Source: Eledone cirrhosa | Taxonomy: Eukaryota | Length of the DNA: 64,000 nucleotides | Direction of reading: 5' to 3' | NCBI GenBank assembly: GCA_964016885.1 | Contig: OZ024745.1 | Location: 36,022,001 to 36,086,000 of the forward strand | Shown: one piece after another, positions 331 to 59,890 of the stretch | Numbering within the stretch: the stretch's first letter is position 1 | How the letters are laid out: each line of letters opens with the position of its first letter | The notes under the pieces: model-generated | What the model was told of the DNA's origin: nothing | Databases searched by the model: none | The model's input: the letters and a program-made list of their open reading frames with translations, nothing else | Position numbers and translations under genes: made by a program

Positions 331-621
<291 letters not shown>

Positions 622-3463: not shown

Positions 3464-3514
<51 letters not shown>

Positions 3515-3515
<1 letters not shown>

Positions 3516-4437
3516 AGGAGGATATAGTTCACTTGAAGCATTGTGTAATGAGGTATAAACGTTTGTATATGTATAATAAAGCCAAAAGAATGCAGGTTTG
3601 GACATAGAATAAATAATGCAAATGTAAAAGATATTGTTGACAATTAGTCTTTTACCTTAGATTTATTTAAATGTCCTTAATTTTCGAGATAATATCTCTT
3701 CTTCGGAGGGAAGTAAAGTGGTTAAACCAGTGTTCTAAATAGCTTGCCAAGTCATGCTGACAGGAAATGGTATAGAGTATCTGTTCTATCTCTAATGTCA
3801 AAGGTTAGGTGGATAAAGAGTAGTCTCCCTTTAAAAGGTTTTTTTTTGTACATGCCTGTTTAAGTGTGTGGGAGAATGCATGAAGGTGTAAGTATGTGAG
3901 TGTGTGTGTCTGAGTGTGAGAAGATATGTCTATACGTAAATGTGGGGGATAGATGTTATCTCGTGTTAGAACTGGTCTTTATGTGTGTATGTGTATGTGT
4001 GTGAGAGAATAAGTGGAGGTGTAAGCGCGTGTGTGTGTGTGCGTGCGTGCGTGTGTGTGTGGGGGGTATAAATATAGGGCTAGAAGCTCTATCAAGTTAT
4101 AAATTGGGTATTGAGTTCTAGTCTATTATTGATTGGTGGTTGTGTTTTGTCTATAATTAGTGCTTCCTTAATTCTAAGATTGTGGAGGTTTCTTTCCTTA
4201 GTTTCTATCCTTAGTTTCTATTTTAGGATGTCAGCATGACCTGGCAAGCTATTGAGAACCCTGGTTTAACCGCTTTACTTTCCTCCGAAGAAGAGATATT
4301 ATCTCGAAAATTAAGGACATTTAAATAAATCTAAGGTAAAAGACTAATTGTCAACCATATCTTTTACATTTGCATTCTTTATTCTATGTCCATACCTGCA
4401 TTGTTTTGGCTTTATTATACATATACAAACGTTTATA
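3515..4437 (-). mobile_element. Penelope-like element 3' fragment with inverted pLTR copy
   Basis: About 210-bp inverted repeat (3554-3762 / 4229-4437); minus strand ~4090-4200 encodes KERNLHNLRIKEALIIDKTQPPINNRLE, a GIY-YIG C-terminal-like motif; hammerhead-like motif in both arms; (TA)n flanks. Confidence 0.8.
4281..4317 (+). ncRNA. Hammerhead-like motif with CCGAAGA core (mirror copy at 3674-3710, minus)
   Basis: TCCT-CCGAAGA-AGAGATATTATCTC-GAAAATTA-AGGA followed by AATAAA. Confidence 0.5.
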
Positions 4438-11864: not shown

Positions 11865-12065
11865 AGGAAAAGAGTCAGAACCCCGACGGCAGAGCTCAAG
11901 CCGTTTAAACAGCTATTTCTGGATAGTTTAGAAATAGCTGTCGAAAACGGCTTGAGCTCTACCGTCGGGGTTCTGACTCATTTCCTTTTACCCACTCTAC
12001 TACCCAAAGTATCGAGTACTCTGGTGCGTTATGTTCCACCTGTTCCTTATCACACTTCCTTCGTT
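11865..12065 (+). mobile_element. Family A element with 5' fold-back (arms ~11865-11920 / 11930-11985)
   Basis: Inverted arms and family homology read directly; (TA)n on both sides. Confidence 0.8.
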
Positions 12066-12774: not shown

Positions 12775-13155
<381 letters not shown>

Positions 13156-13386: not shown

Positions 13387-13467
13387 TATTAAAATAACAG
13401 ATTAAAGTTTCAGAAGATCCCGATAAGTGTGAAAGTTGCGATTCTTTTCTTAAACTTTAATCTGTTA

Positions 13468-16052: not shown

Positions 16053-16998
16053 CTATTACACGGCTCAGAAATATTCCCTTCTTTGAGCTATTAAATTGTA
16101 AAAGACTATTTCGAGTTTATAACTCAATATATGATATATATATAATATTAAGGGTACTATTTATGGTTATGTATGCAATAAAACCATTAATGGTAATATA
16201 TTATATATACAAACCCTAAATAGTGAAAGATAGTCATTAATTACTATCCTATTACCAGTAAGATAAATAGCTCAATGTAATAACATCAGTTGTTTTACAG
16301 AGCAGTTATATAGAGATTACAATAATCAAAGTTCAGTTTAAGTCATTTATTTGCTTACAATTGTTTCCTCCAAACCGAGGTTTGGATTCTTCGGAGCAAC
16401 TATGTATTGTTCTATAACATACTTGACCTGCTTTTCAACCCAAGAGACACATAAAACATATGCGCATATTGATCAACAGTGGGGTGACATTCATCAAATG
16501 ATATAGCATGGCAATTTACATATAAAGGTTGCAGGATAAAAATAAAAAACAAGAATGAAAATAAAGATAAACATGAAGCGTTGGCAGTCTATGAAGATAA
16601 AGCAAGAGGAAAGTTTAGAGTAGTCAGTGTATGAAACAATCTCACGTGTAGCATGCACGCGTGTCTTATTTATACATGATTAGAGTGCGTCAGAATGATA
16701 TTTGCAGGGTCAGGCAGTTGAAGCAGGCAATCGATCTTATTATGTGGGTTGAATTATTAAGTCATTTATTCTCATACATCTGTATGATATACAGTCTCGG
16801 ATGCAGGGGAACACCAAAATATCAAAAACTTTCAACATACTATAAACCTTATTGTATCGTAGGCAAAGCCGTACCACTGTCTTCGCTCACACCACCACTC
16901 ACATAATCCATGAGACGCAATATATATAGAGAGCACGTGTCTATCGTATAATTCGCGGTGGTTCAGCATATAATCAAGCTATAAACCGTATCCAGTCG

Positions 16999-17318
16999 GT
17001 TCTTAATTAATAGATCATGCTGTCCAGATTCCGGAAGTGTCTGAATGACTAAGGGGAATTAATGCGTAAGGGGAGGTAACTAGCTAGTTATCTTAGTTAA
17101 ATTACTATCCTGAACTACATTAATGGTGATTCAAATACGTGCCTATCATATGAAGTTATAACTAATTTCTAGAGTATGTTACCCATTTATAGGTTAGAGA
17201 GTTGTCCGTTAAGAAGTACAAGGGTGTATATATTAGGATGATTACCATCCATTAAGGGGTGTCATATCTGAACGTTCTATAAGAGGAATCTGGACAGCAT
17301 GATCTATTAATTAAGAAC
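16999..17318. mobile_element. MITE-like element with 34-bp perfect inverted termini, inside the spacer of the larger fold-back
   Basis: GTTCTTAATTAATAGATCATGCTGTCCAGATTCC ... GGAATCTGGACAGCATGATCTATTAATTAAGAAC. Confidence 0.6.
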
Positions 17319-17763
17319 ATATAGTATGCTGAAAGTTTTTAATATTTTGGTGTTCCCCTGCATCCGAGACTGTATATCATACAGATGTATGAGAATAAAT
17401 GATTTAATAATTCAACCCACATAATAAGATCGATTGCCTGCTTCAACTGCCTGACCCTGCAAATATCATTCTGACGCACTCTAATCATGTATAAATAAGA
17501 CACGCGTGCATGCTACACGTGAGATTGTTTCATACACTGACTACTCTAAACTTTCCTCTTGCTTTATCTTCATAGACTGCCAACGCTTCATGTTTATCTT
17601 TAATTTCATTCTTGTTTTTATTTTTATCCTGCAACCTTTATATGTAAATTGCCATGCTATATCATTTGATGAATGTCACCCCACTGTTGATCAATATGCG
17701 CATATGTTTTATGTGTCTCTTGGGTTGAAAAGGAGGTCAAGTATGTTATAGAACAGTAAATAG

Positions 17764-17812
17764 TTGCTCCGAAGAATCCAAACCTCGGTTTGGAGGAAAC
17801 ATTTGTAAGCAA
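17764..17812 (+). ncRNA. Hammerhead variant (CCGAAGA core, A.G at base of stem II); mirror copy at 16351-16399, minus
   Basis: TTGCT-CCGAAGA-A-TCCAAACC-TC-GGTTTGGA-G-GAAAC-ATTT-GTA-AGCAA; the mirror copy has palindromic CAATTG in stem III. Confidence 0.7.
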
Positions 17813-18067
17813 ATAAATGACTTAAACTGAACTTTGATTATTGTAATCTCTCTCTCTCTATATATATATATATATAAATGAAGTTAATATGTCCACGGGT
17901 ACTAAGTACCCCTGGAAATATATAGGTTGTCTATGATACATGGTTGTTCAATGGTATTAATTTGACATACCAGAACTATAATATTGAGATAAGCAGAACA
18001 AGCAAAAATCTAACAATTTTTCAAAATAAATTAAAAAATATAATTTAAATATTTACTTACTCTAGTC

Positions 18068-18148
18068 GCTCTTACCGATCGGTTTCCCTTTACAAAACAT
18101 TTGAAATCCATGGGATTTCAATGGAAAAGTAAAGTTCATCAGAGAAGC
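18068..18148 (-). ncRNA. Hammerhead ribozyme motif with intact core
   Basis: Minus strand: GCTTCT-CTGATGA-A-CTTTAC..TTGAAATCC..GGATTTCAA..GTAAAG-G-GAAA-CCGATCGG-TA-AGAGC. Confidence 0.75.
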
Positions 18149-23689: not shown

Positions 23690-26600
23690 TTATATTGACA
23701 GAATCTTCCTTAGTATATGGGCAGTTCCCATTAGTACTATCTTTTGTATTTCTCCTATACGCGGGTTTCCTGGGATTTGCGATATGTAATCATTAGACCC
23801 CTTAGGTATCATTCCCAGAGCGCCTACAACCACTGGTATTGTTTTAGTTCTCAATTTCCACATTTTTCCAATTTCTATCTCCAGGTCCTTATACTTGCTC
23901 AATTTTTCAAATGTTTTTATAGATACATTCTTGTCTATTGGAACAGACATATCAATTAGCAGGCATACCCTCTTTTGAAAGTCTTTCAATATTATATCAG
24001 GTCTGTTTGCATCTATTTTTCGGTCTGTTTGGATGCTAAAGTTCCACAAGATTGAGATGTCATCTTTTTCAAGTATGGGAGGTGGTTGATGCTCCCACCA
24101 ATTCTTTTGATGGGGCAGGTCAAAATACTTACACGTTATCCAATGTATGTATTGTGCAGCTCTGTCATGCCTGTTTAGGTATTCGGTTGGAGCTATAGGA
24201 CTGCACATTGAAATTATATGGTCAATGGTCTCTGGTTGTTTTTTGCATACACGGCATAATGGGCTGCACCCATTTTTTATTATGTTGGCTTGGTAATTTT
24301 TTGTTGGCAGACACTGATCTTGTGCTGATATAATCAGTCCTTCAATCTCCGATTTCAGTCCAGAGGATGCCAACCACTGATGGATTAAAGTTTTGTCAAA
24401 ATCAGGATTGTTAGCTCGCTCTGGGTATTTTCCATACAGAGGCTTTTCTTGCCATTTCTTAGCCAGTTTCTGAAGCAGTTCTTTCTTTGCAGTTACTTTT
24501 ACCTGCTTTGCTTTTTCTGTGTTTTCCATTTCAGCAGTAAATGGGACTTCTGAAATTTGTAGTCCATTACTGTATATTTGTGCATCTTTTGTAATGGAAT
24601 ATGATCTTTTGATGCTTTCGTGTTTCAAAACGAGTTTGATCATCCGATCATGTGATTCCCTTAGATATGTAGATAATCCAATTGTTGCAGTTTTCAACGC
24701 AATGTCTAACTGGATTAACCCACGTCCTCCTTCTTTCCTAGGGAGATATATTCTATCTATATCTGCCTTAGGGTGATGCATTCTGTGCATGGTTAAGAAT
24801 TTTCGAATTCTTGTATCGAGCCTACGGATCTCTGTGCTTGACCAGTTGATGACATTGTAACTGTAGCTTACTACTGGTATGGCAAGCGTGTTTATGGCAT
24901 CGATCCTATTCCTTGCATTCAATTCCGTTTTTAAGATTGCTCTCACTCTGCGGTAACATTCCTTCCTTATCCTTTCCCTCATTGTCGAGTGCTTGATTCC
25001 GTCTCCTTCACAAACACCTAGATATTTGTAAGTTATTTCTTGATCAAGTTCTCTTATCACGTTCCCCCGATCAAGATTAATGTCTGAACTCTTCAGCAGC
25101 TTTCCTCTGGTGAACGTTGCTTTGGCGCATTTATCTAGTCCAAACTCCATTTTAATGTCATCACAGTGGATAATAGCCCTTGCAATTGTTCATCATTTTT
25201 TGCAAATAGTTTCAGGTCATCCATGTAGAACAGGTGATTAATGGTTTTGTCATAGACTTTATATCCATGTTTTGTTTCATTGAGCATTTTACTTAATGGT
25301 ATAAGTGCGATGCAGAATAAAAGCGGTGATAAAGAGTCACCCTGAAAAATTCCACACTTAATATTAACTTCTCCAGCTTCCAGTGATTTTGTTTCACTAT
25401 TCAAAAGGAGTGTCGTTTTCCATGTCTTCATACTGAATGACAAAAACCTCCTGACAACGGGGAATACTTTGAAAATCTCTAAACATTTTTCAATCCAACT
25501 GTGTGGCAAACTATCAAATGCTTTTTTATAATCTATCCAAGCAATCGATAGATTTTTGCGTCTATTATGACAATCTTCCAGTATCATTTTGTTAACCAGA
25601 AGCTGATCCTTACAGCCATATGAGCCTCGTTTACACCCTTTCTGCTCATGGGAAATAGGTCATTTGTTATCAGGTGGTCATATGTGTATTCAGTTAGGAC
25701 TGATGTTAACATTTTATACATTGTGGTCAAGCAAGTTATCGGTCTGTAATTTTTGGGATTGTTTGTCTCATCATTCTTCGGAAGCAGGAATTTAATGCCG
25801 TTAACTAGCCATGAGGGTATCTTTTCTGGCTCCTTAACTATTTCATTGTAAAGTTGGGCTAACAGCTCATGAGACTCTGTGAAGGCATTTATCCAAATGT
25901 TTTGTATTTTGTCTTTTCCTGGGGATTTCCATTTGCTGGTTTTTCTTAGAGCCAAGCGCAACTGTTCAACTGTTATATTTTCCCATGTTTGTTCCTCAAG
26001 GTGAGCTGTATCTTTCATTTGTCTGTCTATCCATGGGGCATGTATGTTATGAACTTTTTCTTCGGCCCAGATCTTTTCCCAGAATTCTTGCACTTCCTCC
26101 TTGGGTGGTATTGATTTAGCAGTTATTGTTGACTTACCAATTTTTCTGTAGAAGTTTCTTTGGTTGTTTTTGAACATATTATTGTCCTTATAGAATCTAG
26201 ATCGTTTTTCAAAGCGCATTATACGATTAGCTTTGGCCGACACTTTTTGCTTGATTATTTCTATCAGCATGTCTATGTCACATGTTGATTTTATACTGTA
26301 CTTTTTTTTCAATTTTCTAAGTTTAGTTTGTTTAACATGTTCACCTACTTTATAGTTTGTTAACATTTCTATGTCAGATCAGAGAAGGTTTATTTGGCGA
26401 TTGATGTTCTCTTGCCAAGTAGATTTCTTGTGGGAATTCCTTTGTTTTTTCATCTTCACTCCACATAAGTGAGTGGTGACTTTAGCCGATGCATAATAGA
26501 GATGATTTAAATCAGTAATGTTTAGTTTATTTGTGATGATAATGTTTTTGAGAATTATGTTAGTCTTGTGTATTATCTTTTGGTTCTGTTTGGAGTTCTG

Positions 26601-27326
26601 GATCTTAGGGAGGGTGTCTCGTTGCCCCATGTCAGATTCTTTCATGTTCATCCATTCGATCACAATTTCATCCTTTAAGTTGGCAAGTTCATTCTCATTC
26701 ATTTCTTTATCATTTACGATCTCATTATTTTCATTTGGAGTTTCATCCTGAGCATGCACTCCCTCCACTGTTTCGATCCTTTCTTTAATTTTTTCTGTTG
26801 CCAGTGATTCCGCCCCAACCCTGGGATTCGAAGTGTTACAGTTTACCTCGTTTTCACTGACACATGTTTCATTTTCCCCTCGCTGACTTTGTGCTAATAG
26901 CTTGATCTGATCAATTTCTATATCAGTTAGTAACTTTTTTCTTACAATATTTCTTCGTATATTGGCTAGTTTGTTGCTGTCAATATAGCATCTTTTTTCG
27001 GGATGTTTCTTTTTCCAGTTGATATATGTCTGTTCTGTATTCGATGTATTTGATGGGTAGTACATGGCAGTGTAGAAAGCCTCAAGGACTTCTTTATTAT
27101 CTTCCCTTGACCATTTTTCTCTCTTTTTCTTTGGATTTCGTGGTGGTGAGCATGGAGGGCCAACAGTAGGAGTATTCCGGTTATGGGAGGTCTCCAGCTC
27201 CGAAGTGATAGGAAGGTTTGAACCATTAGCTGATTTTTCGACCCCAGCCTGGTTCCTCTCTGAGGGACGCGGCCCTTTTTTACCCGGGTGACGGCCGATC
27301 CGGTATGAGATTTTATCATTAGACAT
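23690..27326 (-). pseudogene. R4/Dong polyprotein (~1200 aa) broken by a stop at 26379, a 1-bp deletion near 25648 and a 13-bp deletion near 25163
   Basis: KWSREDNKEV (Myb-like), NYRPITCL, GIFQGDSLSP, FYMDDLKL, YKYLG, CRVC..HIISMC, RHD, RPDI..LIDMS..K..KY. Confidence 0.92.
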
Positions 27327-27344
27327 TTACTTTATTTTGTCGCG

Positions 27345-27480
27345 TTTTATCCTTATCCGCCAAGGGGTAATCATTTCGTGTTACCACTTCTAGAACGAGT
27401 GTCAACCAAGACTAGAGGGGTCGTTCTCCCCTAGAGACACGGCTATTCCCCGCCGGCCGCCATCCCGGTATTTCTTGGTC
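27345..27480 (-). ncRNA. Candidate pseudoknotted RNA element upstream of the Dong ORF (also at 32536-32665)
   Basis: Pairings GACCAAGA/TCTTGGTT, GTGTC/GACAC, AGAACGA/TCGTTCT, GGGG/CCCC, GGTAA/TTACC and CCTT/AAGG are present in both copies. Confidence 0.5.
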
Positions 27481-28446
27481 GCGGTGTTTTCATTTTGTTG
27501 TTTTTTTAAATTGTTATTATCATGTGTGGTTCCTTAATGTGTGCATTGCGTGGCTTAAGAATGAAATTATTAATAATTGTCTCCACTCCAGGCACAAGGC
27601 CAGCAATCACCCAGTGCATTACAATAATATAATATACTTTTTGTTGTGGTTGGCTGTTATTGTTGTTGGCTATGTCGGTGGTGGTGCCGGGGCTTTTTAT
27701 ATTGTTGGTGAGGAAGGGGTGAGCCAGCAGTCCCATAATTGTTGATGTGGCCAGGTCACTAAGTCAATCTATTTATATCTTTTGCTAGCCTCTCCCTTGT
27801 CTAGTGATACCGCCACCTTCCCCTTTCTCTCTTAAGTTAACAGGGGAATAGTGGTGGTAGCATTGAAGGAGTGGTGGCGGCGGGGAGATGTGGGAGACAG
27901 TAGCGACGGTATCGATACTGAGACAGTGGTGGTGGTGATGTCGATACCGAGGCAGTGGTGGCGGTGATGTGATCGTATTACTGTAGCGATGGTGTTGTAG
28001 CGGTGGAAGCAATGAGGGAGTGGTGGCGGCGGTGATAGGATAGTGGTGGTAATGATGGCAGTAGTGAGTGGTGGTGGTGAAATTGCCGTTATCTGGCTGT
28101 TGTGTTTAGTGTACACAGAGAGGTGATAGTGTAGGTGTTGTATCTAGTTTCTGGTGTTGTTTGGCTGTTCTATATAGCGTAGACAGAGGAGGGGGGGGGG
28201 TTCTTCTTCCATTTATAGCCATTTTCTTCTTTGAATATACAATGTACAATACAAAGTTGAATATTTGAATATTTGAGCCTTATAACAATATATTTTGGGT
28301 CCGAATTTTTTTGGGGCTCAAGCCGGATGCTTTACGTAGCATTTGTACTAAGAGTTGTTATTTCACAAATGATTTAAATATGTTAAAAATTCAAAACTTA
28401 CGGGAGCAATTTCATGACCTTCTACCACCTCGTGCGTCTTCTTCCC

Positions 28447-28506
<60 letters not shown>
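28447..28506. repeat. (TTA)20 spacer between the two Dong copies
   Basis: Read directly. Confidence 0.97.
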
Positions 28507-28507
<1 letters not shown>

Positions 28508-28650
28508 AGCTGCATTTATCTTGCTTTATGTTCATACGAGTTATCACCAAGTCACAACCAGTGACCTCAAGAGACAACAAGGTCCGCCATGTTCAAGAAA
28601 GAACATACATACTCACACATGCATCTTTAGTGTTTAGACTTGTGATGTAC

Positions 28651-31600
28651 TTATATTGACAGAGTCTTCCTTAGTATATGGGCAGTTCTCATTAGTACTA
28701 TCTTTTGTATTTCTCCTATACGCAGGTTTCCTGGGATATGCGATAAGTAATGATTAGACCCCTTAGGTATCATTCCCAGAGAGCCTACAACCACTGGCAT
28801 TGTTTTAGTTCTCAATTTCCACATTTTTCCAATTTCTATCTCCAGGTCCTTATACTTGCTCAATTTTTCAAATGTTTTTATAGATACATTCTTGTCTATT
28901 GGAATGGACATATCAATTAGCAGGCATACCCTCTTTTTAAAGTCCTTCAATATTATATCAGGTCTGTTTGCATCTATTTTTCGGTCTGTTTGGATGCTAA
29001 AGTTCCACAAGATTGAGATGTGATCTTTTTCAAGTATGGGAGGTGGTTGATGCTCCCACCAATTCTTTTGATGGGGCAGGTCAAAATACTTACACGTTAT
29101 CCAATGTATGTATTGTGCAGCTCTGTCATGCCTGTTTAGGTATTCGGTTGGAGCTATAGGACTGCACATTGAAATTATATGGTCAATGGTCTCTGGTTGA
29201 TTTTTGCATACACGGCATAATGGGCTGCATCCATTTTTTATTATGTTGGCTTGGTAATTTTTTGTTGGCCGACACTGATCTTGTGCTGATATAATCAGTC
29301 CTTCAGTCTCCGATTTCAGTCCAGGGGATGACAATCACTGATGGGTTAAAGTTTTGTCAAAATCAGGATTGTTAGCTCGTTCTGGGTATTTTCCATACAG
29401 AGGCTTTTCTTGATATTTCTTAGCCAGTTTCTGTAGCAGTTCTTTCTTTGCAGTTACTTTTACCTGCTTTGCTTTTTCTGTGTTTTCCATTTCAGCAGTA
29501 AATGGGACTTCTGAAATTTGTAGTCCATTACTGTATATTTGTGCATCTTTTGTAATGGAATATGATCTTTTGATGCTTTCGTGTTTCAAAACGAGTTTGA
29601 TCATCCAATCATGTGATTCCCTTAGATATGTTAATAATCCAATTGTTGCAGTTTTCAACGCAATGTCTAACTGGACTAACCCACGTCCCCCTTCTTTCCT
29701 AGGGAGATATATTCTATCTATATCTGCCTTAGGGTGATGCATTCTGTGCATGGTTAAGAACTTTCGAATTTTTGTATCGAGCCTACGGATCTCCGTGCTT
29801 GACCAGTTGATGACATTGTAACTGTAGGTTACTACTGGTATGGCAAGCGTGTTTATGGCATCAATCCTATTCCTTGCATTCAATTCCGTTCTTAAGATTG
29901 CTCTTACTCTGCGGTAACATTCCTTCCTTATCCTTACCCTCATTGTCGAGTGCTTGATTCCGTCTCCTTCACAAACACCTAGATATTTGTAAGTTTTTTC
30001 TTGATCAAGTTCTCTTATCACGTTCCCCCGATCAAGATTAATGTCTGAACTCTTCAGCAGCTTTCCTCTGGTGAACGTTGCTTTGGCGCATTTATCTAGT
30101 CCAAACTCCATTTTAATGTCATCACTGAACTGCTCCACAGTGGATAATAGCCCTTGCAATTGTTCATCATTTTTTGCAAATAGTTTCAGGTCATCCATGT
30201 AGAACAGGTGATTAATGGTTTTGTCATAGACTTTATATCCATGTTTTGTCTCATTGAGCATTTTACTTAATGGTATAAGTGCGATGCAGAATAAAAGCGG
30301 TGATAAAGAGTCACCCTGAAAAATTCCACAATTAATATTAACTTCTCCAGCTTCCAGTGATTTTGTTTCACTATTCAAAAGGAGTGTCGTTTTCCATGTC
30401 TTCATACTGAATGACAAAAACCTCCTGACAACGGGGAATATTTTGAAAATCTCTAAACATTTTTCAATCCAACTGTGTGGCAAACTATCGAATGCATTTT
30501 TATAATCTATCCAAGCAATCGATAGATTTTTGTGTCTATTATGACAATCTTCCAGTATCATTTTGTTAACCAGAAGCTGATCCTTACAGCCATATGAGCC
30601 TCGTTTACACCCTTTCTGCTCAATGGGAAATAGGTCATTTGTTATCAGGTGGTCATATGTGTATTCAGTTAGGACTGATCCAAAAATTTTATACATCGTG
30701 GTCAAGCAAGTTATCGGTCTGTAATTTTTGGGATTGTTTGTCTCCTCATTCTTCAGAAGCAGAAATGTAATGCCGTTAACTAGCCATGATGGTATCTTTT
30801 CTGGCTCCTTAACTATTTCATTGTAAAGGTGGGCTAACAGCTCATGAGACTCTGTGAAGGCATTTATCCAAAAGTTTTGTATGTTGTCTTTTCCTGGGGA
30901 TTTCCATTTGTTGGTTTTTCTTAGAGCCAAGCGCAACTGTTCAACTGTTATATTTTGCCATATTTGTTCCTCAAGGTGAGCTTTATCTTTCATTTGTCTG
31001 TCTATCCATGGGGCATGTATGTTATGAACTTTTTCTTCGGCCCAGATCTTTTCCCAGAATTCTTGCACTTCCTCCTTGGGTGGTATTGATTTAGCAGTTA
31101 TTGTTGACTTACCAATTTTTCTGTAGAAGTTTCTTTGGTTGTTTTTGAACATATTATTGTCCTTATAGAGGATTGGCAGAGGATTGGCAGTACCAGTAGA
31201 GGGTCGGACGCCATGCTTTGACGCATAGATTTACGGTCCTTGCCATTCTGAGTTCAAATCCCGCCGAGGTTAACTTTGCCTTTCATCCTTTCGGGGTCGA
31301 TAAAATAAAGTACCAGTAATACACTGGGTTAATTGCTGGCCTTGTGCCAAAAGTAGAAACAATTATTGTCCTTATAGAATCTAGATCGTTTTTCAAAGCG
31401 CCTTATACGATTAGCTTTGGCCGACACTTTTTGCTTGATTATTTCTATCAGCATGTCTATGTCACATGTTGATTTTATACTGTACTTTTTTTTCCATTTT
31501 CTAAGTTTAGTTTGTTTAACATGTTCACCTACTTTATAGTTTGTTAACATTTCTATGTCAGATCGGAGAAGGTTTATTTGGCGATTGATGTTTTCTTGCC

Positions 31601-32511
31601 AAGTAGATTTCTTGTGGGAATTCCTTTGTTTTTTCATCTTCACTCCACATAAGTGAGTGGTGACTTCAGCCGATGCATAATAGAGATGATTTAAATCAGT
31701 AATGTTTAGTTTGTTTGTGATGATAATGTTTTTGAGAATTATGTTAGTCTTGTGTATTATCTTTTGGTTCTGTTTGGAGTTCTGGATCTTAGGGAGGGTG
31801 TCTCGTTGCCCCATGTCAGATTCTTTCATTTTCATCCATTCGATCATAATTTCATCCTTCAAGTTGGCAAGTTCATTCTCATTCATTTCTTTATCATTTA
31901 CGATCTCATTATTTTCAATTTGGAGTTTCATCCTGGGCATGCACTTCCTCCACTTTTTCGATCCTTTCTTTAATTTGTTCTGTTTCCAGTTATTCCGCCC
32001 CAACCCTGGGATTCGAAGTGTTACAGTTTACCTCGTTTTCACTGACACATGTTTCATTTTCCCTTTGCTGACTTTGTGCTAATAGCTTGATCTGATCAAT
32101 TTCTATATCAGTTAGTAACTTTTTTCTTACAATATTTCTTCGTATATTGGCTAGTTTGTTACTCTCAATATAGCCTCTGTTTTCGGGATGTTTCTTTTTC
32201 CAGTTGATATATGTCTGTTCTGTATTCGATGTATTTGATGGGTAGTACATGGCAGTGTAGAAAGCCTCAAGGACTTCTTTATTATCTTCCCTTGACCATT
32301 TTTCTCTCTTTTTCTTTGGATTTCTTGGTGGTGAGCATGGAGGGACAACAGTAGGAGTATTCCGCTTATGGGAGGTCTCCAGCTCCGAAGTGATGGGAAG
32401 GTTTGAACCATTAGCTGATTTTTCGACCCCAGTCTGGTTCCTCTCTGAGGGACGCGGCCCTTTTTTACCCGGGTGACGGCCGATCCGGTATGAGATTTTA
32501 TCATTAGACAT
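28651..32511 (-). pseudogene. R4/Dong polyprotein, copy 2: stop at 29335, SINE insertion, further lesions near 31920-31990
   Basis: ORF pieces of 227, 605, 224 and 173 aa match copy 1. Confidence 0.92.
31170..31361 (+). mobile_element. S1 SINE inserted in Dong copy 2 with 17-bp TSD
   Basis: TSD ATTATTGTCCTTATAGA at 31153-31169 and 31362-31378; empty site in copy 1 (~26178). Confidence 0.95.
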
Positions 32512-42737: not shown

Positions 42738-42783
<46 letters not shown>

Positions 42784-42785
42784 TA

Positions 42786-43285
42786 ATAATGAAATGACAG
42801 GAGGCTGGATTTGTGTAAATCCTTGAAAGGTTTATTATACTATGATCATTTCAATGACCGGGTTCCGTATGAATCCGGTGATATCATCAGGTATTCGAAA
42901 TATAATACGTGAATGTAATAGGTAAAATCCATGGGGCTGAAAATCGAGACCCGAGGGCGACCGCTATTCTGTTCCTTCAACCTCAGCCGGTCGCCCTGGA
43001 TTTTACCTATTACATTCACGTATTATATTTCGAATACCTGATGATATCACCGGATTCATACGGAACCCGGTCATTGAAATGATCATAGTATAATAAACCT
43101 TTCAAGGATTTACACAAATCCAGCCTCCTGTCATTTCATTATAATATTTAACTCCGTAATAGCACCACCAACTACAAAAACAAAGACGGTTGAACTGCTT
43201 TACGTTGAGTACTCTCTATATTATTGCATTACGATTGACCATACGGAATAGACCAGCTCTATACAGTGGTGAACCTCAAACCTGA

Positions 43286-43759: not shown

Positions 43760-44002
<243 letters not shown>

Positions 44003-46909: not shown

Positions 46910-48448
46910 GATACTTGATAGAGTAATCCAAAGGATATTTATCCATGTTCAGTATTGGTTTAAAATCCTATTGACTGAAGAGTGCTCGACTTTGAAAGGG
47001 CTGGAGGGTGCCAATCTCATAAAAATGTAGAATATGCTGCGATCATTCCCTTGGGAGCTGTATAAGTATTGTAGTTTCCGTTGAAAATTGAAAAAAGTCA
47101 TAGGAGTGAAGCGTGCTCTATATACCAGAGCAAAATTTAATGTTTAATAAACAATACAATATAATTACCTCATTACCAGAGGTTTCCCGAATAAGACGGA
47201 TACGAAAAACGTCCTCATTCGTTCGTCGGACAAGGCAATTTAAAACATAGTGAAATATTTGGAAAGTTTCCTCAAGAAATGCAAAACATATATAAATAAA
47301 AGTAATGAAAGAGATATATAAAACAATATAAGGAAATATAGTTAGGGTATGTGTATATGCATGTATATAAGAAATCACCCAGAGAACATCAAAATTGCTC
47401 CTGTAGAGTCAAAAGTGAATGCCCATTACAAGGTAAATGCAACACCAAAGCCATTGTATATGCGGCTAAAGTGACAACCATCAGCAACAACCAACCAGCA
47501 ATCAGCGAACGATTGTGCGTATGACACAAGACAAATTCAAAACGCGTTATTACTCACATGTCGCATCTTTCCGCCATCCAGAAAAAAAGATTCACAACAG
47601 CTCTGGCTAGCAGAATATGGGATTTGAACGACCAATGTATCCAATATAAATTGGATTGGTCAATTTTGAACCAATCTAAAGAATATGCAAGAGGAACAAG
47701 AATTTGCACACTCTGCATAAGTGAAAAATATTGGATTTTACAGAACCTTAAATCACCAAAAACCTGCCTAAATACAAAAACAGAAATGTTCACACATGAA
47801 ATCACACTTGCTTTCCAGCTCATATAAACTTAACTCACTTTCAGATACTTATCCTCCATAAACTCCTTTTCTTCACTTTCCTTAATGTATCCTCTTCACA
47901 GACTTCTCTTTCTGATTTACTTTCATTTTTAACTTTATTTTTAATTTTATTTTTATTTTTACTTCACATCCACCAGTAACCCCCCCCCCTCCCGCCCCTA
48001 CTTTTCGATTCACTGACCTAATATCTTCACATTCTACATTTTACTTCCCCATTTTCTTTCACTACCTGATACCTGGGTCACTTGTGTTTTCCACTCCAGA
48101 TATATTCTGTTGTTTCGCAGCCGATTTTATATTTGTACTCATTTATTCATATGGCTGATTTATCATCTGTATCTATGTGTCTGAGTGTGCTTATGCGTGT
48201 ATACGTTCTGTATATGTATACGAACGGCTCCGTATGTGTGCGTGCGTACGTATATATATGTGTGTGTATGTGTGTTTTTATATCTATCTTTTTTTATATC
48301 TATGTTTTTTACATTCTTATTTTTACGTGTGTGTGTATGCGGGTAAATGCATGTGTATGTATATGTGTATATGTATGTATGGGTGTGTATGTATATGTGT
48401 ATATATATATATAGTCGCGTACGTACGTGTGATTAGATATACATGGGG

Positions 48449-48488
<40 letters not shown>

Positions 48489-49205
48489 GTGCCTCGTGTG
48501 TATGTATGTACGCATGCATGCGCTTTTGTCTGTACGTATTTGTGTGTATACATATTTTTTTATATATATATATGTGTATGTACGTGCGTACCTATGTTTC
48601 TTTTCTCTAGTGTTAATTGATTACTTTCTCTGTGATTTAAAATTTTTTTCATTCTCATATATTGTTTCATTTTTATACATATATCGAGAATGACACTTCT
48701 TTTTACTATTACACTCCCTTCCCTCTTTATCTTCCGCATATAAGAGACCGCGCGTGTGTGTGTGTGTTTATACGCGTGCTTTCATACTCGTATGTGTATT
48801 TAATACCTGTATCTGGATGCGTGTCAACTATATTTTCATACAATTTCTTTTTCAACTCATATTATATACGTATTTGTGGTCACATATACACAAATATACT
48901 TGCCCTCATATATGTACTTACGCACACATTTTCACCATACACATGCATTTGTACATACACACATATGTACATTTGTGAGTGTATATACATACATATACAC
49001 ATACCGTAACTATATTTCTTTATATTGTTTTATATATCTCTTTCATTACTTTTATTTATATATGTTTTGCATTTCTTGAGGAGACTTTCCAAATATTTCA
49101 CTATGTTTTAAATTGCCTTGTCCGACGAACGAATGAGGACGTTTTTCGTATTCGTCTTATTCGGGAAACCTCTGGTAATGAGGTGATTATAGTGTATTGT
49201 TTATT
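46910..49205. mobile_element. PLE insertion with inverted pLTR (47147-47369 / ~48980-49205) and GIY-YIG remnant (47370-47830, plus)
   Basis: WSILNQSKEYARGTRICTLCISEKYWIL..LNTKTE resembles a PLE endonuclease C-terminus; hammerhead variant in both arms. Confidence 0.8.
49116..49183 (+). ncRNA. Hammerhead variant (CCGACGA core, A.G); mirror copy at 47168-47235, minus
   Basis: CCTTGT-CCGACGA-A-CGAATGAGGACG..CGTCTTATTCG-G-GAAACC-TCT-GGTA-ATGAGG. Confidence 0.65.
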
Positions 49206-49209
49206 ATAC

Positions 49210-49269
<60 letters not shown>

Positions 49270-51639: not shown

Positions 51640-52005
51640 AAAAAGAGATGAAATCGAAAATGCAAAAGAGAGGGGGGGGTTGTCACAGGTTGTTTTTTCA
51701 TATATGAGTGTTTGAATTTCTTTTTACTTGAAAAAAGGAGGCTCACGAAGGCTTTTTTTGGTTGGTTATAAATGAAATTTGGCTGTCACGTGAACAAGTT
51801 TTTATTACATTTTTGCGCCCTTATTTGGAAAACTATTCTGTAGTCTTTATAGTGAATGTTATGACAATGGAGAGATAGTGGTCAAGAGAAAAGGGATTGG
51901 GAGAAATGTTCTGGTTCAGTGAATATGGCCAGCTCGCCGGGGTGTCAGAGTTCAGATTTTCTATTGAGACTGAAGATATGTATGTTTATTTGTGTGCTTG
52001 TGTGT

Positions 52006-52068
<63 letters not shown>

Positions 52069-52541
52069 TATTGGAAGATGATTCTATTAGTAGAGATGGG
52101 GGAGGGAGTTGTGTGTGTGTGTAAATGGGTGTTATGTGTGTGTGTGCGAGTATGTTAAGGTGGAGAGAATATATATTTTGTGTGTGTGTATATATATATG
52201 TGTGTAGGAAAGGGGTTCTATTAGTAGAAATGGGGAGGGAGTTGTAGGTGTGGGGGTTGTCATGTGTGTGTATGGGTGTTATGTGTGTGGGAGTATGGTT
52301 AGCATGTTAAGATGAAGAGAATATATATATATATATATATATAGTGTGTGTGTGTAGGAAAGTGATTCCTTTAGTAGGAATATTTTTGAATGAACATATT
52401 TTCCTTACTTTTTCGTGTTTGCTGTTGTATTGCCAGTGCAAACGTATGTTAAGGTTTATTTAGTTCGGGTTTTTATTTTCTAAAGTAGAAGGTGTTATGT
52501 GTGTGTGTGTATGTCATATTGTGGTGTTGACATAATGTATA

Positions 52542-53714
52542 TTAAACCTTATTTAATGTTGGTCTATATTTTTGAATAAACATATTTTCCTTATTTATTC
52601 GCATTTGTTCTGCTGTATTGTTAGCGCAAAGGTAAAATGGGAAGACTTGGAATTTGGGTGTCTTATTACTTGCACAAATGTCTAGATGTGCACTTAGTGG
52701 TATCTGTCTCGTGGTTGGATCTCGTAATTGTTGGCGATGAACTGTCATTCTGTTTCTGAGTGTGAGTTTAGTTTGTCCTATCTAATCTTCATTGCATCCT
52801 TTACAATAAATGGCATAAATTAGATTTTTTGATGAGCAAGTGAAGTGATTTTTTACAGTAAAATTTTGCCCTGATTTAAATGTATACGTGTTACCTTCAA
52901 TGAGGTGAGTGCAGGTTCCACAATTAGAGCGACCACATTTTTTGATACTTGGTTGTGGGTTTGTGGTAGGTAATTTGGCATTGGTGAGTAATGTTTTCAG
53001 TGATTTTGGTTGTCTTTTGCTTTTGATTATTTTGTGTGTTTCAAGGGCTTTTTTCATTCTTGGGTTTTGTTTTAGTAGTGGGATGTTATTGTGAATAGTG
53101 TTGTAAGCTTCCGCATTTCTTGGGTTGTGTGTTGAGATATATGATAGAATATTGGACGTACCTTGAATTTGTTTCTGTTTCCGTAATTCATCAATACCTA
53201 TTGCTTTAGCCCTTTCTATTCCATTATTTATTAGTAATAGTGGGTACTCTCTCTCAAGTAGAATTTCCTTTAATTCTTGAAGTCTTTTATTTCGCGTTTC
53301 ATAATTGGAGACAATTGTGCAAATTCTTCTTGCTAGGTTAAAAGGAATGTTCGTCTTCGTGTGCTTTGGATGGTTGGAGGTGAATAGCAGATATTGTTTG
53401 GAATCTGTTGGTTTGTAGTGTATGTCAGTTTCGATATTTGTGTCTTTTTTTAAGATTAAGATGTCCAGAAATGGGAGTTGATCTTGGCTGTATTCCATTG
53501 TGAATTGGATGTGGTTATTGATGCCGTTTATTAAGTTTTTGAAATCCTTCAGTTGGTCGAGTGTGTGGGACCAAAGAATGAGGCAATCGTCCAAGTAGCG
53601 TTTCCAATTCTCTGATAAATATTTGTGGAAGTTCAATCCGTATTTTGATTTGGACTTTTCATATATCTGGACTTCTAAGTATGCCATGACTAAGTTGGCA
53701 TAAGTTGGAGCGGC
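52542..53714 (-). pseudogene. PLE RT (motif B' to thumb), Cys-rich linker and GIY-YIG endonuclease; one stop at 52782
   Basis: APTYANLVMAYLE, WKRYLDD, FTME, LPFLD, YKPTD..YL..S.HP, CGRSNCGTC, NLIYAIYCKGC..*IGQT..R..H..H. Confidence 0.92.
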
Positions 53715-53725
53715 TTATTACACAC

Positions 53726-53784
<59 letters not shown>

Positions 53785-53898
53785 TCTTCATCTTAACATG
53801 CTAACCATACTCCCACACACATAACACCCATACACACACATAACAACCACCACACCTACAACTCCCTCCCCATTTCTACTAATAGAACCACTTTCCTA

Positions 53899-53938
<40 letters not shown>

Positions 53939-54456
53939 TACACACACACAAGCACACAAATAAACATACATATCTTCAGTCTCAATAGAAAATCTGAACT
54001 CTGACACTCCGTCGAGCTGGCCATATTCACTGAACCAGAACATTTCTCCCAATCCCTTTTCTCTTGACCACTATCTCTCCATTGTCATAACATTCACTAT
54101 AAAGACTACAGAATAGTTTTCCAAATAAGGGCGCAAAAATGTAATAAAATCTTGTTCACGTGACAGCCAAATTTCATTTATAACCAACCAAAAAAAGCCT
54201 TCGTGAGCCTCCTTTTTTCAAGTAAAAAGAAATTCAAACACTCATATATGAAAAAACAACCTGTGACAACCCCCCTCTCTTATTTGAAGAACTATTGTAA
54301 CGCGAACTGGCGCGAAATTTATTATAATTATTGACAAACCAATCAAATTACTTCTCGAAAAACCTGGAATTTCGAGCCACTTTTTCCATATAAAACAAGT
54401 AACATTCAGAGACCAACCAGATGTGAGAAAAACCACAGACCCTCCGTCTCAACTCA

Positions 54457-54494
54457 CCTTTTGAAAAGCAGAAGAACTGCGAAACCGGTAAAGG
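54457..54494 (+). ncRNA. Minimal hammerhead with compensatory U3-A8 core
   Basis: CCTT-TTGAAAA-GCAG-AAGAA-CTGC-GAAA-CCGG-TA-AAGG followed by AATAAA. Confidence 0.7.
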
Positions 54495-56424: not shown

Positions 56425-56969
56425 GGCGATATCCAATTTTAGTGGACTAAATGCTGCTTACGTGCTGTAGTTGCTGCTTACTTCAATGTATGAGGCTATT
56501 CCAACAAATTAACATTCCCTTTTTTTTAGCCGTTAAAAGAAATATCGATTTATTTATTGTTTTTTTTTTGCGATTTATTTGCCACTGGGGCATAGATTTC
56601 TTTATTTCCCTGGCAGAAAGGTCGCACACTTTCTACGGGTGTGTGTGTGACCCCAAAAGGCTGCCTCTCTATTGAGGACTTAATTTTTTATATTCCTTTT
56701 TAATCACTCGTTAAATGTTTGTACTTGATTTTTGTAAAACTTCCTCCGCCTAATGCTCTAGTGGCAAATAAATCGCAAAAAAAAACAAACAAACAAACAA
56801 AAACGTGGCAAATAAATCGCAAAAAAAAACGAAACAATAAATAAATCTATATTTCTTTTAACGGCTAAAAAAAAGGGAATGCAAATTTGTTGGAATAGCC
56901 TCATACATTGAAGTAAACAGCAACTACAGCACTTAAGCAGCATTTAGTCCACTAAAATTGGATATCGCC
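56425..56969. mobile_element. MITE with ~160-bp TIRs, GG termini and 8-bp TSD (Merlin-like; Mutator possible)
   Basis: GGCGATATCCAATTTTAGTGG... / ...CCACTAAAATTGGATATCGCC; TSD TTATTTTT at 56417-56424 and 56970-56977. Confidence 0.8.
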
Positions 56970-57015
56970 TTATTTTTTAGTATATCATATTGCACTAAGC
57001 TATTATTTTTTTAGC

Positions 57016-59544
57016 ATGGCAGATAGTAAACGACCATCTGGTGCTCAGTATCGCAAACGCAAACTTGAAAAAGAAAGGGAACTTGCAAAGCAAAAAGGAT
57101 CATTTCTAAAATACCTTTGCAAGGTGAGAGAGACTGAAGGTGATGATTATGATGAAAATAACTCTATTTCTGTTTCTATTGATGAATTCTATGATGTAAG
57201 TATCATACAGCCAGGAAATGAAAATATCTTTGATGAAAGACATGAACATTCAGAAACAGAGTATAAGGATGATGGATCAATCGAAAATGAAGTTTTAAAT
57301 CCAAGTTACAGTGATATCCCACCTGGCCAAAAAAGTTTAATGATAATGTTAGAAGGCTACTAGTTCAACATGGACCGGAACAAGTTAAAAATATAAAGTT
57401 TCCTAAATATAAGAATCGGAGAAAATTTTCAAACATTCATTATACTAGAAAGTTAATTAATGGTGAAGAAATTAATCGTAATTGGTTACAATATTCAGTA
57501 TTACAAGACTGTGTGTTCTGCTTTTGCTGTAAATTGTTTAGTAAAAAAAATAGCTAGTCTATCAACTCTTGCAGTACATGGATTTGCAGATTGGAAAAAT
57601 ATGTCAGCTATACTATCATCTCATGAAAAATCAACTGAACATTTTGAAAACTTTAATAACTGGAAAGAATTGGATTTGCGATTAAACAGAAATGCAACAA
57701 TTGATGAGGAAAATGCTCGTCTAATAAAACAAGAAGAACAATATTGGAGACATATTTTAGAACGTTTATTAACTTTAGTTCGGACTCTTGGTGGACAAAA
57801 ATTTAGCCTTCAGAGAATCTGTTGATAAACTGTTTACTGCTGGAAATGGAAACTTTGTTAAGTTGTTGAATATCTTGCTCTGTTTGATCCAATAATGAAA
57901 GAACACTTGAGAAGAATTAGAGATAATGAAACCCATATACATTACCTTGGTAAAGAAATGCAAAATGAACTGATACAGCTAGTGTCAAATGCTATTATAC
58001 ATGACATAGTAAAGTCCTGTCAATCAGCTAAATATTGTTCAATTATACTGGACTGTACTCCCGATGTAAGTCACATAGAACAAATTACATTGGTAATAAG
58101 ATTCATTGATATGCGAATGGATGAAGTCAAGATTCGTGAACATCTTTTGACATTTATTAAACTGAAGTAAACTACTGGTGCATTTATGTCTGAATGTCTT
58201 CTACAAAAATTGGAAGAACTCGGGTTATCTATGGTAAATATACGTGGACAAGGCTCTGATAACGGGAGCAACATGAAAGACAAACATAGTGGAGTTCAAA
58301 AAATAATTCTAGACCTTAATCATGGTGCCTTCTTTGTTCCTTGCAGTAGCCATTCACTAAATTTAGTTGTGAATGATGCAGCAAAATGTTGTCTAGAGGC
58401 CACTAGTTTCTTTGATATATTGCAACGTATGTATGTGTTTTTTTCAAACGTAACCTATCGTTGGGAAGTGTTGATGAAACATGTGCCAACTCTAACAGTA
58501 AAACGTTTGAGTGATACATGATGGGAGAGTCGTATTGACGCATTGAAGCCTCTGCGTTACCAGATTGGCCATGTGTATGATGCACGAACTGAACTAGCTG
58601 ATGATACTAATCTCAATGGATCATCTAGTGATACAACACGATGTGATGCTGAAGCCCTTTCAAATGTTATATCAAATTATAAATGTATTGCTTGCCTTGT
58701 TTGGTACAATAGTTTATTTGAAATTAATATAACAAGTAAATTACTGCAAGAAAAAGACTTTAATATTCAGGCTGCACTTCAGCAGTTAAAACAAACAAAA
58801 TCATTTCTTGAAAATAGCAGAACAGATGAAGCATTTCAAAGAAATTTGGTTGATGCTTCAGAGATAGCAAGAGAACTTGAAGTTCCATCGGAATTCGAAA
58901 ATGAAAAACAAATAATTAGAAGAAAAAAAAGACAGTTTCAATATGAAAGAATATATGAACCAATTCAGGAGCCGAAGGAAAAATTCAAAATAGAGTTTTA
59001 TTTTACTCTATTGGACAAAACAATTCAATCTATTAAAGAAAGATTTGAGCAGATGAATTTAATCAGTGAACTTTTTGGATTCCTTTATGATTTGAAGGCA
59101 CTGCAAAATAAGACAACAGAAAACATAATGAGTTATTGCTTGAAGCTTGAGTCTGCATTGAAATCGGGTGAATCAAAAGATATAGATGCAATAGATCTAT
59201 GTAATGAACTCCAAGCCATTGCACGTCGTACACCAAAGAGTGTGAATCCACAAGCTTTGCTTCAGTATATTTGTGAGCAAAAACTTGTTGATAGTGTGCC
59301 TAATACAGTGGTTGTCTTGAGAATACTGTTGACATTATAAGTAACAGTGGCCAGTGGTGAGCGCAGCTTCTCTAAGCTTAAGCTGATTAAGACGTATTTA
59401 TGATCCTCTACGGTACAAACCAGACTTACAGGACTGGCATTAATACGAATAGAAAATGAAATAGCTCATCAACTCAACATGGAGGATATTATATCTCAGT
59501 TTTCGAAATTAAAAGCACGCAAAGTTCACATTAAATTCAATTAG
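57016..59544 (+). pseudogene. hAT transposase (ZMYM1-like type) with multiple stops and frameshifts
   Basis: WLQYS..FCFCCKLF, ILDCTPDVSH, RGQGSDNGSNM, PCSSHSLNL, VASGERSFSKLKLIK (dimerisation domain). Confidence 0.92.
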
Positions 59545-59890
59545 TTTTGTCTTTATATTTAGTTTTAAAAATAAATTTCGTTTTAATTACCAGGTTTATA
59601 AATTTGTTATTTAAACTTAATATTTGTGTCTATGCCTATAGTGAAATAATAGCTTGCGCCGACCCTGGTCATTGGTCAGGTCATTGATGAAGTGAAGCAA
59701 GCTTTGCCTGCCTGTTGGCTTGTTATTGTTAATCGATTTTATTCTCCTACCCTCATCTGCCTGTCTGCTTGTCGCTTGCTTTCATATAATATAAACACGG
59801 CCGCTGGCTATCGACGTGATTTTTAGTCTTGAGTTTTTGTCTTGATAATAAGGTATGTAGGCCGAAATACTAACTTCATAGTGCGTAAAG

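What the first reader, a model, noticed from the sequence alone, without database searches (positions are those of the whole stretch)
16351..17812. Recurrent U4C core variant (CCGANGA), twice coupled to an A.G pair at the base of stem II
CCGAAGA/CCGACGA replaces CUGANGA in both arms of three unrelated elements (3674/4281, 16351/17764, 47168/49116). The last two also have A10.1.G11.1, as does the intact-core motif at 18068. Presence in both arms and across families, and a T-to-C direction opposite to CpG decay, argue for an inherited variant rather than erosion. It may be an attenuated or protein-assisted hammerhead class.
Basis: partly seen in the sequence, partly recalled or inferred. Interest (0 to 1): 0.72.

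Follow-up and report, generated by a model that had tools for sequence, protein, structure and literature searches.

The report
Penelope hammerheads with inherited C4 core
These repeats are the tail ends of three Penelope-type jumping genes whose small self-cutting-RNA (hammerhead) motif has C in place of a normally fixed U in thousands of copies, which likely makes a slow cutter that the elements can afford because new copies include the sequence beyond the cut site; the A·G pair noted beside it is a separate trait, not a fixed partner.

Summary
Observation confirmed. All seven motifs are type I hammerhead folds at the 3' ends of truncated, inverted Penelope-like elements (PLEs). C4 is the family state, not erosion. 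Family A (16351/17764): 1115 C4 against 9 U4. Family C: 224 U4 of 2374. Family B: 287 U4 of 951, a U4 sub-lineage. A and B are Hydra-clade PLEs; C is a canonical non-Hydra PLE. The two arms are copies of one template, so they are not independent evidence. A·G is heritable but not tied to C4: C4 also occurs with C·A, C·C, U-A and G-C, and A·G occurs with U4. A mismatch at that position is already published for Hydra hammerheads. Across C4 lineages the core and stems stay while free positions change, and copies end 44 to 217 nt past the cut site. Best reading: a slowed, still-selected, probably protein-assisted ribozyme; cleavage is untested. U4C is known from a viroid; I found no paper giving it as a PLE family state (Lünse 2017 could not be read). 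This scan noted the same variant before, in this genome and in others. New variant of a known kind; interest 0.4.

The parts
16143..17290 (-). Family A (Hydra-clade PLE): 5'-truncated 3' end of the element, with the longer end (213 nt past the predicted cut site)
   Evidence: BLAST to a tandem full-length unit from L040, 95-97%; end classes +44 and +213
17320..17851 (+). Family A: shorter inverted copy, ending 44 nt past the predicted cut site, next to (CT)n(TA)n
   Evidence: 98.3% inverted repeat of 16312-16844 over 533 nt; sequence
16351..16399 (-). Type I hammerhead, CCGAAGA core (C4 at 16393), A10.1.G11.1, palindromic stem III CAAUUG, predicted cut after A17 at 16356
17764..17812 (+). Type I hammerhead, C4 at 17770, A10.1 at 17776, G11.1 at 17795, GAAA 17796-17799, private T at 17802, predicted cut after 17807
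46911..49216 (.). Family B (Hydra-clade PLE): truncated copy 47367-49216 (+) holding an endonuclease remnant, plus inverted copy 47369-46911 (-)
   Evidence: BLAST to L180; window endonuclease fragment sits in the B clade
47163..47240 (-). Type I hammerhead, CCGACGA core (C3 at 47229), A.G at the base of stem II
49111..49188 (+). Type I hammerhead, CCGACGA core (C4 at 49123), A10.1 at 49129, G11.1 at 49164, predicted cut after 49177
3514..4437 (.). Family C (canonical C-terminal-endonuclease PLE, not Hydra): truncated copy with inverted arm
   Evidence: BLAST to L175; L175 holds a 900-aa open frame with RVT_1 and GIY-YIG
3674..3710 (-). Minimal hammerhead, CCGAAGA core, extra A, G10.1-C11.1, stem III AAUU
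4281..4317 (+). Minimal hammerhead, CCGAAGA core (C4 at 4286), extra A at 4292, G10.1-C11.1, predicted cut after 4313
18068..18146 (-). Family D hammerhead, canonical CUGAUGA core, A.G sub-lineage of a family that also has G-C and U.U

Best explanation
The motifs are hammerhead folds at the 3' ends of three Penelope-like retrotransposon families in which C4 is the inherited majority state, and they are likely slowed, still-selected ribozymes predicted to cut as dimers with help from the element's own protein. Shown: the fold, its place on the sense strand behind a PLE reading frame, C4 as family state, a kept core and stems across diverged C4 lineages, and inserted copies that run past the cut site. 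Inferred: U4C lowers the rate; slow cutting is tolerated because reverse transcription starts downstream of the ribozyme on uncut RNA; the palindromic stem III pairs two copies. A.G is one of several 1x1 mismatches that Hydra-clade hammerheads carry at the base of stem II, and it changes independently of position 4.
For: Counts: A 1115 C4 vs 9 U4; wider A hairpin 4852 matches, 99 of the first 100 with C4; sister lineages 1265 C4, 129 U4, 55 A5; C 224 U4 of 2374; B 287 U4 of 951; family E 194 matches, first 100: 86 C4G5, 8 C4A5, 4 U4, 2 G4. A public run shows no other letter at 17770 above 5% and 32% T at 49123 (it may be the window's own species or sample). PLE frames lie upstream on the same strand. 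Selection on the fold: sister lineages with 43-78% protein identity to A by fragment differ from A at N7, N17, loop II, 10.1, 11.1 and the upstream flank, but not in the core or stems; 3'-half core letters that the search did not demand are G12 46, A13 49, A14 49, A15.1 48, U16.1 47 of 49, 1 further copy left out. Uncut template: 0 of 71 A copies and 0 of 58 C copies end at the cut site; A ends at +44 to +50 (48) and +213 to +217 (21), C mostly at +122 to +125 (22) and +161 to +169 (28). Literature: the viroid U4C variant has much lower activity yet suffices in vivo (PMC3088659); CUGA-turn mutants show low activity with no rescuing second change except the C3-G8 swap (PMC9901934); an anole PLE hammerhead cuts only with protein and its mutants do not affect insertion in vitro (PMC11167929).
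Against: No cleavage data; no RNA run was available. U4 and C4 copies of B end at the same places past the cut site (32 of 33 and 39 of 41 at +30 to +99), so uncut ends do not show that C4 is slower than U4. Non-core neighbours in the sister set are about as conserved as the core (46-47 of 49), so that count alone does not isolate catalysis. In energy models a non-hammerhead fold wins as monomer (-14.7 vs -10.6 kcal/mol) and as dimer (-35.5 vs -32.4). No full-length A or C copy began at the cut site (2 A and 10 C starts seen). A 21,309-match Hydra family with A4 shows position 4 can drift further, which also fits loss of cleavage.
Confidence: 0.55

Rival explanations
1. The C4 motif no longer cuts. 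The fold is kept as a binding or positioning signal for the RT-endonuclease protein near the reverse-transcription start sites, or is a young vestige.
For: Insertions include the whole motif; hammerhead mutants do not affect insertion in vitro for the anole element, and Naiad PLEs spread without a canonical hammerhead; position 4 is U, C or A in different abundant families; C4 is joined by a mismatch at the normally conserved 10.1-11.1 pair in A, B and E.
Against: G8, G12, the C3-G8 pair, A15.1-U16.1 and a non-G at 17 are the majority state in every C4 lineage seen (A, sisters, B, C, E) while stems and loops differ; U4C is a known active natural variant.
Confidence: 0.3
2. C4 and A.G compensate each other or form a switch and define a separate hammerhead class with near-normal activity. 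One possible route is a U2.1-C3-C4 / G11.1-G12-A13 helix that locks the core until the protein opens it.
Against: C4 occurs without A.G in 16 of 100 A-group copies, in the sister lineages and in family C; A.G occurs without C4 in the U4 sub-lineage of B and in D. The families are related and partly hand-picked, so the p value is not a fair test. Pairwise mutagenesis of a type III hammerhead found no rescue for U-turn mutants.
Confidence: 0.12
3. The window copies are private mutants of canonical families (erosion).
For: None beyond one private change at 17802.
Against: C4 is the majority in A, B and C. A.G is seen in 84 of 100 A-group copies and 48 of 48 B copies.
Confidence: 0.01

Closest known systems
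Hammerheads of Hydra-clade PLEs (Craig et al. 2021, PMC8557442; seen: passages, section 11, supplement part 2 with File S2, and protein rows)
   Same: Families A and B have the clade's protein marks (RWR/RWK, DKT, CxCX5C linker, YRDD) and a type I hammerhead with a 3-4 bp stem III. A mismatch at the base of stem II is common there: U.U in 14 and U.C in 1 of 26 Hydra rows.
   Different: All 26 rows have U4 and none has A.G. Family A's unit is 4.7 kb, against under 3 kb typical.
Minimal hammerheads (min-HHR) in pLTRs of metazoan PLEs (Cervera and De la Pena 2014, PMC4209133; seen: main text parts 1-2 of 4, supplement parts 1-2 of 3)
   Same: Family C matches the consensus: extra nucleotide between 9 and 10.1, G10.1-C11.1, 2-bp palindromic stem III; opposite-strand pairs of motifs; low in vitro activity as dimers.
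   Different: All 56 rows of Fig. S3 have U4; their descriptor fixed the core, so C4 would have been missed. A, B and D lack G10.1-C11.1.
Natural U4C viroid hammerhead variant (as cited in Perreault et al. 2011, PMC3088659; seen: section 8 and passages; the original paper not read)
   Same: Same core change; activity much lower in vitro but enough in vivo.
   Different: A sequence variant of a plant viroid; here C4 is the majority state of thousands of transposon copies in two PLE clades.
PAc Poseidon hammerhead of Anolis (2024, PMC11167929; seen: passages)
   Same: Two reverse-transcription start points downstream of the motif that give a 'tail'; uncut RNA as main substrate; cleavage needs protein. 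Two end classes are seen here in A, B and C.
   Different: Position 4 of PAc was not checked; the tails here are longer in A (169 nt) and B (about 60 nt); no assay exists for these families.

Membership tests
Type I hammerhead ribozyme | Three-way junction with stems I, II, III and open stem I | tested here: met
   0 folds at score >=26 in the reversed control
Type I hammerhead ribozyme | C3-G8, G5, A6, A9, G12, A13, A14, A15.1-U16.1, H17 | tested here: met
   all seven window motifs; family majorities
Type I hammerhead ribozyme | U4 of the CUGA turn | tested here: not met
   C4 in A, B, C; filed as a core variant, for which a natural precedent exists
Type I hammerhead ribozyme | Paired 10.1-11.1, usually G-C | tested here: not met
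   A.G in A, B and the window copy of D; met in C
Type I hammerhead ribozyme | Site-specific self-cleavage after N17 | not testable with these tools
   no assay; no RNA run listed
PLE minimal hammerhead (dimer type) | Short or palindromic stem III | tested here: met
   A CAAUUG, C AAUU, D CCGAUCGG; B CCUCUGG is a 3-bp hairpin or imperfect palindrome
PLE minimal hammerhead (dimer type) | Located in the pLTR on the sense strand of a PLE | tested here: met
   tandem units of 4697 nt (A, L040/L041) and 3126 nt (C, L175) with a motif at each unit end; B frames 1.2-1.4 kb upstream; no frame seen for D
Hydra clade of PLEs (families A, B) | RWK-type motif, DKT in place of DKG, CxCX5C linker, no CCHH, C-terminal GIY-YIG | tested here: met
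   read by eye in the frames against section 11 and rows of PMC8557442; Pfam GIY-YIG only weak for A, E 0.0032, below cut-off
Hydra clade of PLEs (families A, B) | Placement in a tree with published Hydra proteins | not tested
   trees used this genome's fragments only
Canonical C-terminal-EN PLE (family C) | GxKF, DKG, YVDD, GIY-YIG with CCHH in one frame | tested here: met
   900-aa frame in L175; RVT_1 5.8e-16 and GIY-YIG 3.5e-05; Penelope/Poseidon versus Nematis not resolved

The most novel reading that the evidence does not exclude
Position 4 of the hammerhead core is a tuning site in Penelope-like elements: U, C and A states have each fixed in successful lineages of one genome, in at least two PLE clades, while the catalytic guanines stay. 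The element's RT-endonuclease supplies what U4 normally does and times the cut to after reverse transcription starts; in the C4 plus A.G families a C4-G11.1 helix holds the core shut until then.
Probability: 0.15. Interest if true: 0.72.

Novelty: new variant of a known kind. Interest (0 to 1): 0.4.

Why it matters
What the hammerhead does for Penelope-like elements is open. Family B has C4 and U4 sub-lineages that both spread, and family D has G-C, U.U and A.G forms on a U4 core, so natural matched pairs exist to test whether cutting speed matters. Search descriptors that fix CUGA and G10.1-C11.1 would miss roughly 9,000 C4 motif matches here (sum and the non-U4 parts of 17 and 18; arms counted separately) and 21,309 matches of a family that read A4 in 100 of 100 listed. 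The impact is moderate: the host elements, the fold, the stem II mismatch and a viroid U4C variant are all known, and activity is unmeasured.

Tried and rejected
Rfam scan: no hammerhead hit, only repeat-driven matches below gathering scores. RNA evidence: no RNA holder listed; contigs cannot show cut ends, and runs X1, X6 and X7 covered the motifs little or not at all, so conservation in other species is not shown. U4 over A5 excess at the core CpG (C 224 vs 59, B 287 vs 12, sisters 129 vs 55) was tried as a test of selection on G5 and set aside: non-core CpGs also lean to TG in B (54 vs 11) and A (22 vs 13), U4 sub-lineages explain the excess, and family E shows none (4 vs 8). Order of U4 and C4 inside B and C: not resolved; the trees have no outgroup, B kept 61 of 71 rows, C 46 of 69, A 67 of 77, and paired arms shorten branches. 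Separate origins of C4 in A and B: not shown. Two tests that rejected one clade were flawed because nested members were left in the other group; the corrected test did not reject it (p-AU 0.073). A link between positions 4 and 7 was dropped: C4 occurs with A7, C7, U7 and G7. Family E could not be tied to a reading frame in 13 loci. Literature: searches for hammerhead + U4C, CCGANGA-type strings, Penelope + dimers + variants, Penelope + octopus, natural core variants and G10.1/C11.1 gave no report of C4 as a PLE family state. Lünse et al. 2017 (about 150,000 PLE-linked variants, recalled) and Nelson and Uhlenbeck 2008 were not held; the former and its supplements could contain C4 forms. bioRxiv 10.64898/2026.07.22.740005: part 1 of 5 read, nothing on position 4 there. 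PMC13725137, PMC6155905, PMC6765202 and PMC3376415: passages only, no C4 data seen.

Full report
Setting. The window lies in a 3.0-Gb animal genome rich in (TA)n. The species was not determined. The flagged stretch is a long inverted repeat, 16312-16844 against 17320-17851, 98.3% identical.

The observation. Families A (16351/17764) and B (47168/49116) open stem II with A.G. Family C (3674/4281) has an extra A followed by a normal G10.1-C11.1. The motif at 18068 (family D) has CUGAUGA with A.G. In 904 kb scanned, 74 folds reached score 26 (62 U4, 10 C4, 2 A4) and none did in the reversed control. The scanner needs a 4-bp stem II and so under-counts short-stem families.

What the elements are. 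Longer copies were fetched by place. Family A forms 4697-nt tandem units with an RT and a C-terminal endonuclease on the same strand as the motif. Its frames and those of B show RWR/RWK, DKT, YRDD and a CxCX5C linker, the marks given for the Hydra clade (matched by eye). A and B are 31% identical over 171 residues. Family C has a 900-residue open frame with GxKF, DKG, YVDD and a CCHH-type GIY-YIG domain, so it is a canonical non-Hydra PLE. The window copies are 5'-truncated ends with an inverted partial copy attached, the usual PLE insertion form. Both arms most likely come from one template, so their agreement is not independent evidence.

C4 is inherited. Exact counts: A 1115 C4 against 9 U4; the wider A hairpin 4852 matches, with C4 in 99 of the first 100; sister lineages of A 1265 C4, 129 U4, 55 A5; C 224 U4 of 2374; B 287 U4 of 951. 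Listings are the first 100 places, mostly on contig C1. In B the U4 copies share many linked sites and mostly group together, so both states spread. A further C4 family, E, turned up beside an unrelated hit: 194 matches, 94 of the first 100 with C4. U4 is the majority in 30 of the 35 families that passed the score in 1.75 Mb of loci (6 lower-scoring clusters left out; loci were enriched for A to D) and in all published rows seen, so U to C is the likely direction. C4 is present in two PLE clades, which points to at least two origins. Separate origins in A and B are not shown (p-AU 0.073).

A.G is a separate trait. It is heritable: 84 of 100 A-group copies, 48 of 48 B copies whatever their position 4, and a sub-lineage of D, where position 10.1 is G 58, T 25, A 17 of 100 and position 4 is U in 100 of 100, with G-C in 10 and A.G in 4 parsed copies and U.U in others. 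C4 also occurs with C.A, C.C, U-A and G-C. Eleven of 30 U4 families have some other mismatch there, and U.U is found in 14 of 26 published Hydra rows.

Is the fold still under selection? Sister lineages of A are about 70-80% identical in flanking DNA and 43-78% in protein fragments. They differ from A at N7, N17, loop II, 10.1, 11.1, one stem III letter and most of the upstream flank, and not in the core or the stems. Half of the core was demanded by the search pattern; the other half (G12 to A15.1, U16.1) was not, and is kept in 46-49 of 49 copies. B, C and E have unrelated stems around the same core. G8 and G12, the catalytic residues, are kept in all these lineages. Against this: neighbouring non-core letters are about as constant within the sister set, and a huge Hydra family carries A4.

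How it most likely works. Transcripts through tandem units carry a hammerhead near each unit end, and palindromic stems III would let two pair into a double hammerhead, as proposed for PLE motifs. Inserted copies end at two fixed distances past the predicted cut site and not at it: A +44 and +213, C +123 and +163, B about +30 and +90 for both C4 and U4 (1 of 74 ended just before the site). This matches the two internal reverse-transcription starts and the uncut template reported for an anole PLE, whose hammerhead cuts only with protein and is not needed for insertion in vitro. U4C is reported to lower activity strongly while allowing viroid infection, and CUGA-turn mutants were low with no rescue in a pairwise scan. 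The best reading is therefore a slow, still-selected, probably protein-assisted ribozyme (0.55). A non-cutting fold kept for another role (0.30) and a compensating C4 plus A.G class (0.12) are the rivals. Energy models favour a non-hammerhead fold for the A arm, which fits low activity under either of the first two readings.

Novelty. PLE hammerheads, the extra A, stem II base mismatches, protein assistance and a viroid U4C variant are in print. I found no paper giving C4 or A.G as a PLE family state; Lünse et al. 2017 could not be read and may hold such rows. Earlier notes of this scan report C4 families in this genome and in others and the A4 family. They are unreviewed and were used as leads: the Hydra assignment came from one of them and was checked here. 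Verdict: real, inherited, new variant of a known kind; the coupling claim is not upheld; interest 0.4.

Noticed in passing
window 13408-13465 (+), decayed copy; loci L343-L354: Family F: Hydra-type PLE whose hammerhead has A4 (CAGAAGA), U.U at the base of a 3-bp stem II and a hairpin stem III; 21,309 matches, A4 in 100 of 100 listed. Also noted earlier by this scan.
   Followed up: partly
L016:2500; L331-L342: Family E: C4 and A.G with a stem II domain of about 60 nt and stem III CAAUUG; 194 matches; no reading frame found nearby.
   Followed up: partly
window 18068-18146 (-); L190-L209: Family D occurs as 297-485 bp tandem units with no coding frame seen, like a non-LTR retrozyme; it has G-C, U.U and A.G sub-lineages.
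   Followed up: partly
window 51663-54490: Inverted repeat around a Penelope-type RT/endonuclease fragment (52782-53714, -); a U3-A8 hammerhead variant (UUGAAAA) lies at 54461 (+), a family seen in 10 loci.
   Followed up: no
window 42781-43147: Short foldback with canonical-core hammerheads (U.U at stem II base) at 42890 (-) and 43038 (+).
   Followed up: no
window 23690-32511 (-): Two broken copies of a non-LTR retrotransposon with RT and a C-terminal restriction-like endonuclease (R2/R4-like, judged by eye).
   Followed up: no
window 56956-61944: Fragments of hAT-like transposase frames, judged by eye.
   Followed up: no
window 370-470, 11935-12064, 12889-13060, 43868-43979 and the 31181/41100/49536/55250 group: Abundant short hairpin-rich repeats of about 100-190 nt next to (TA)n, not analysed. 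Earlier notes describe rearranged hammerheads in this genome; whether these repeats are that family was not checked.
   Followed up: no
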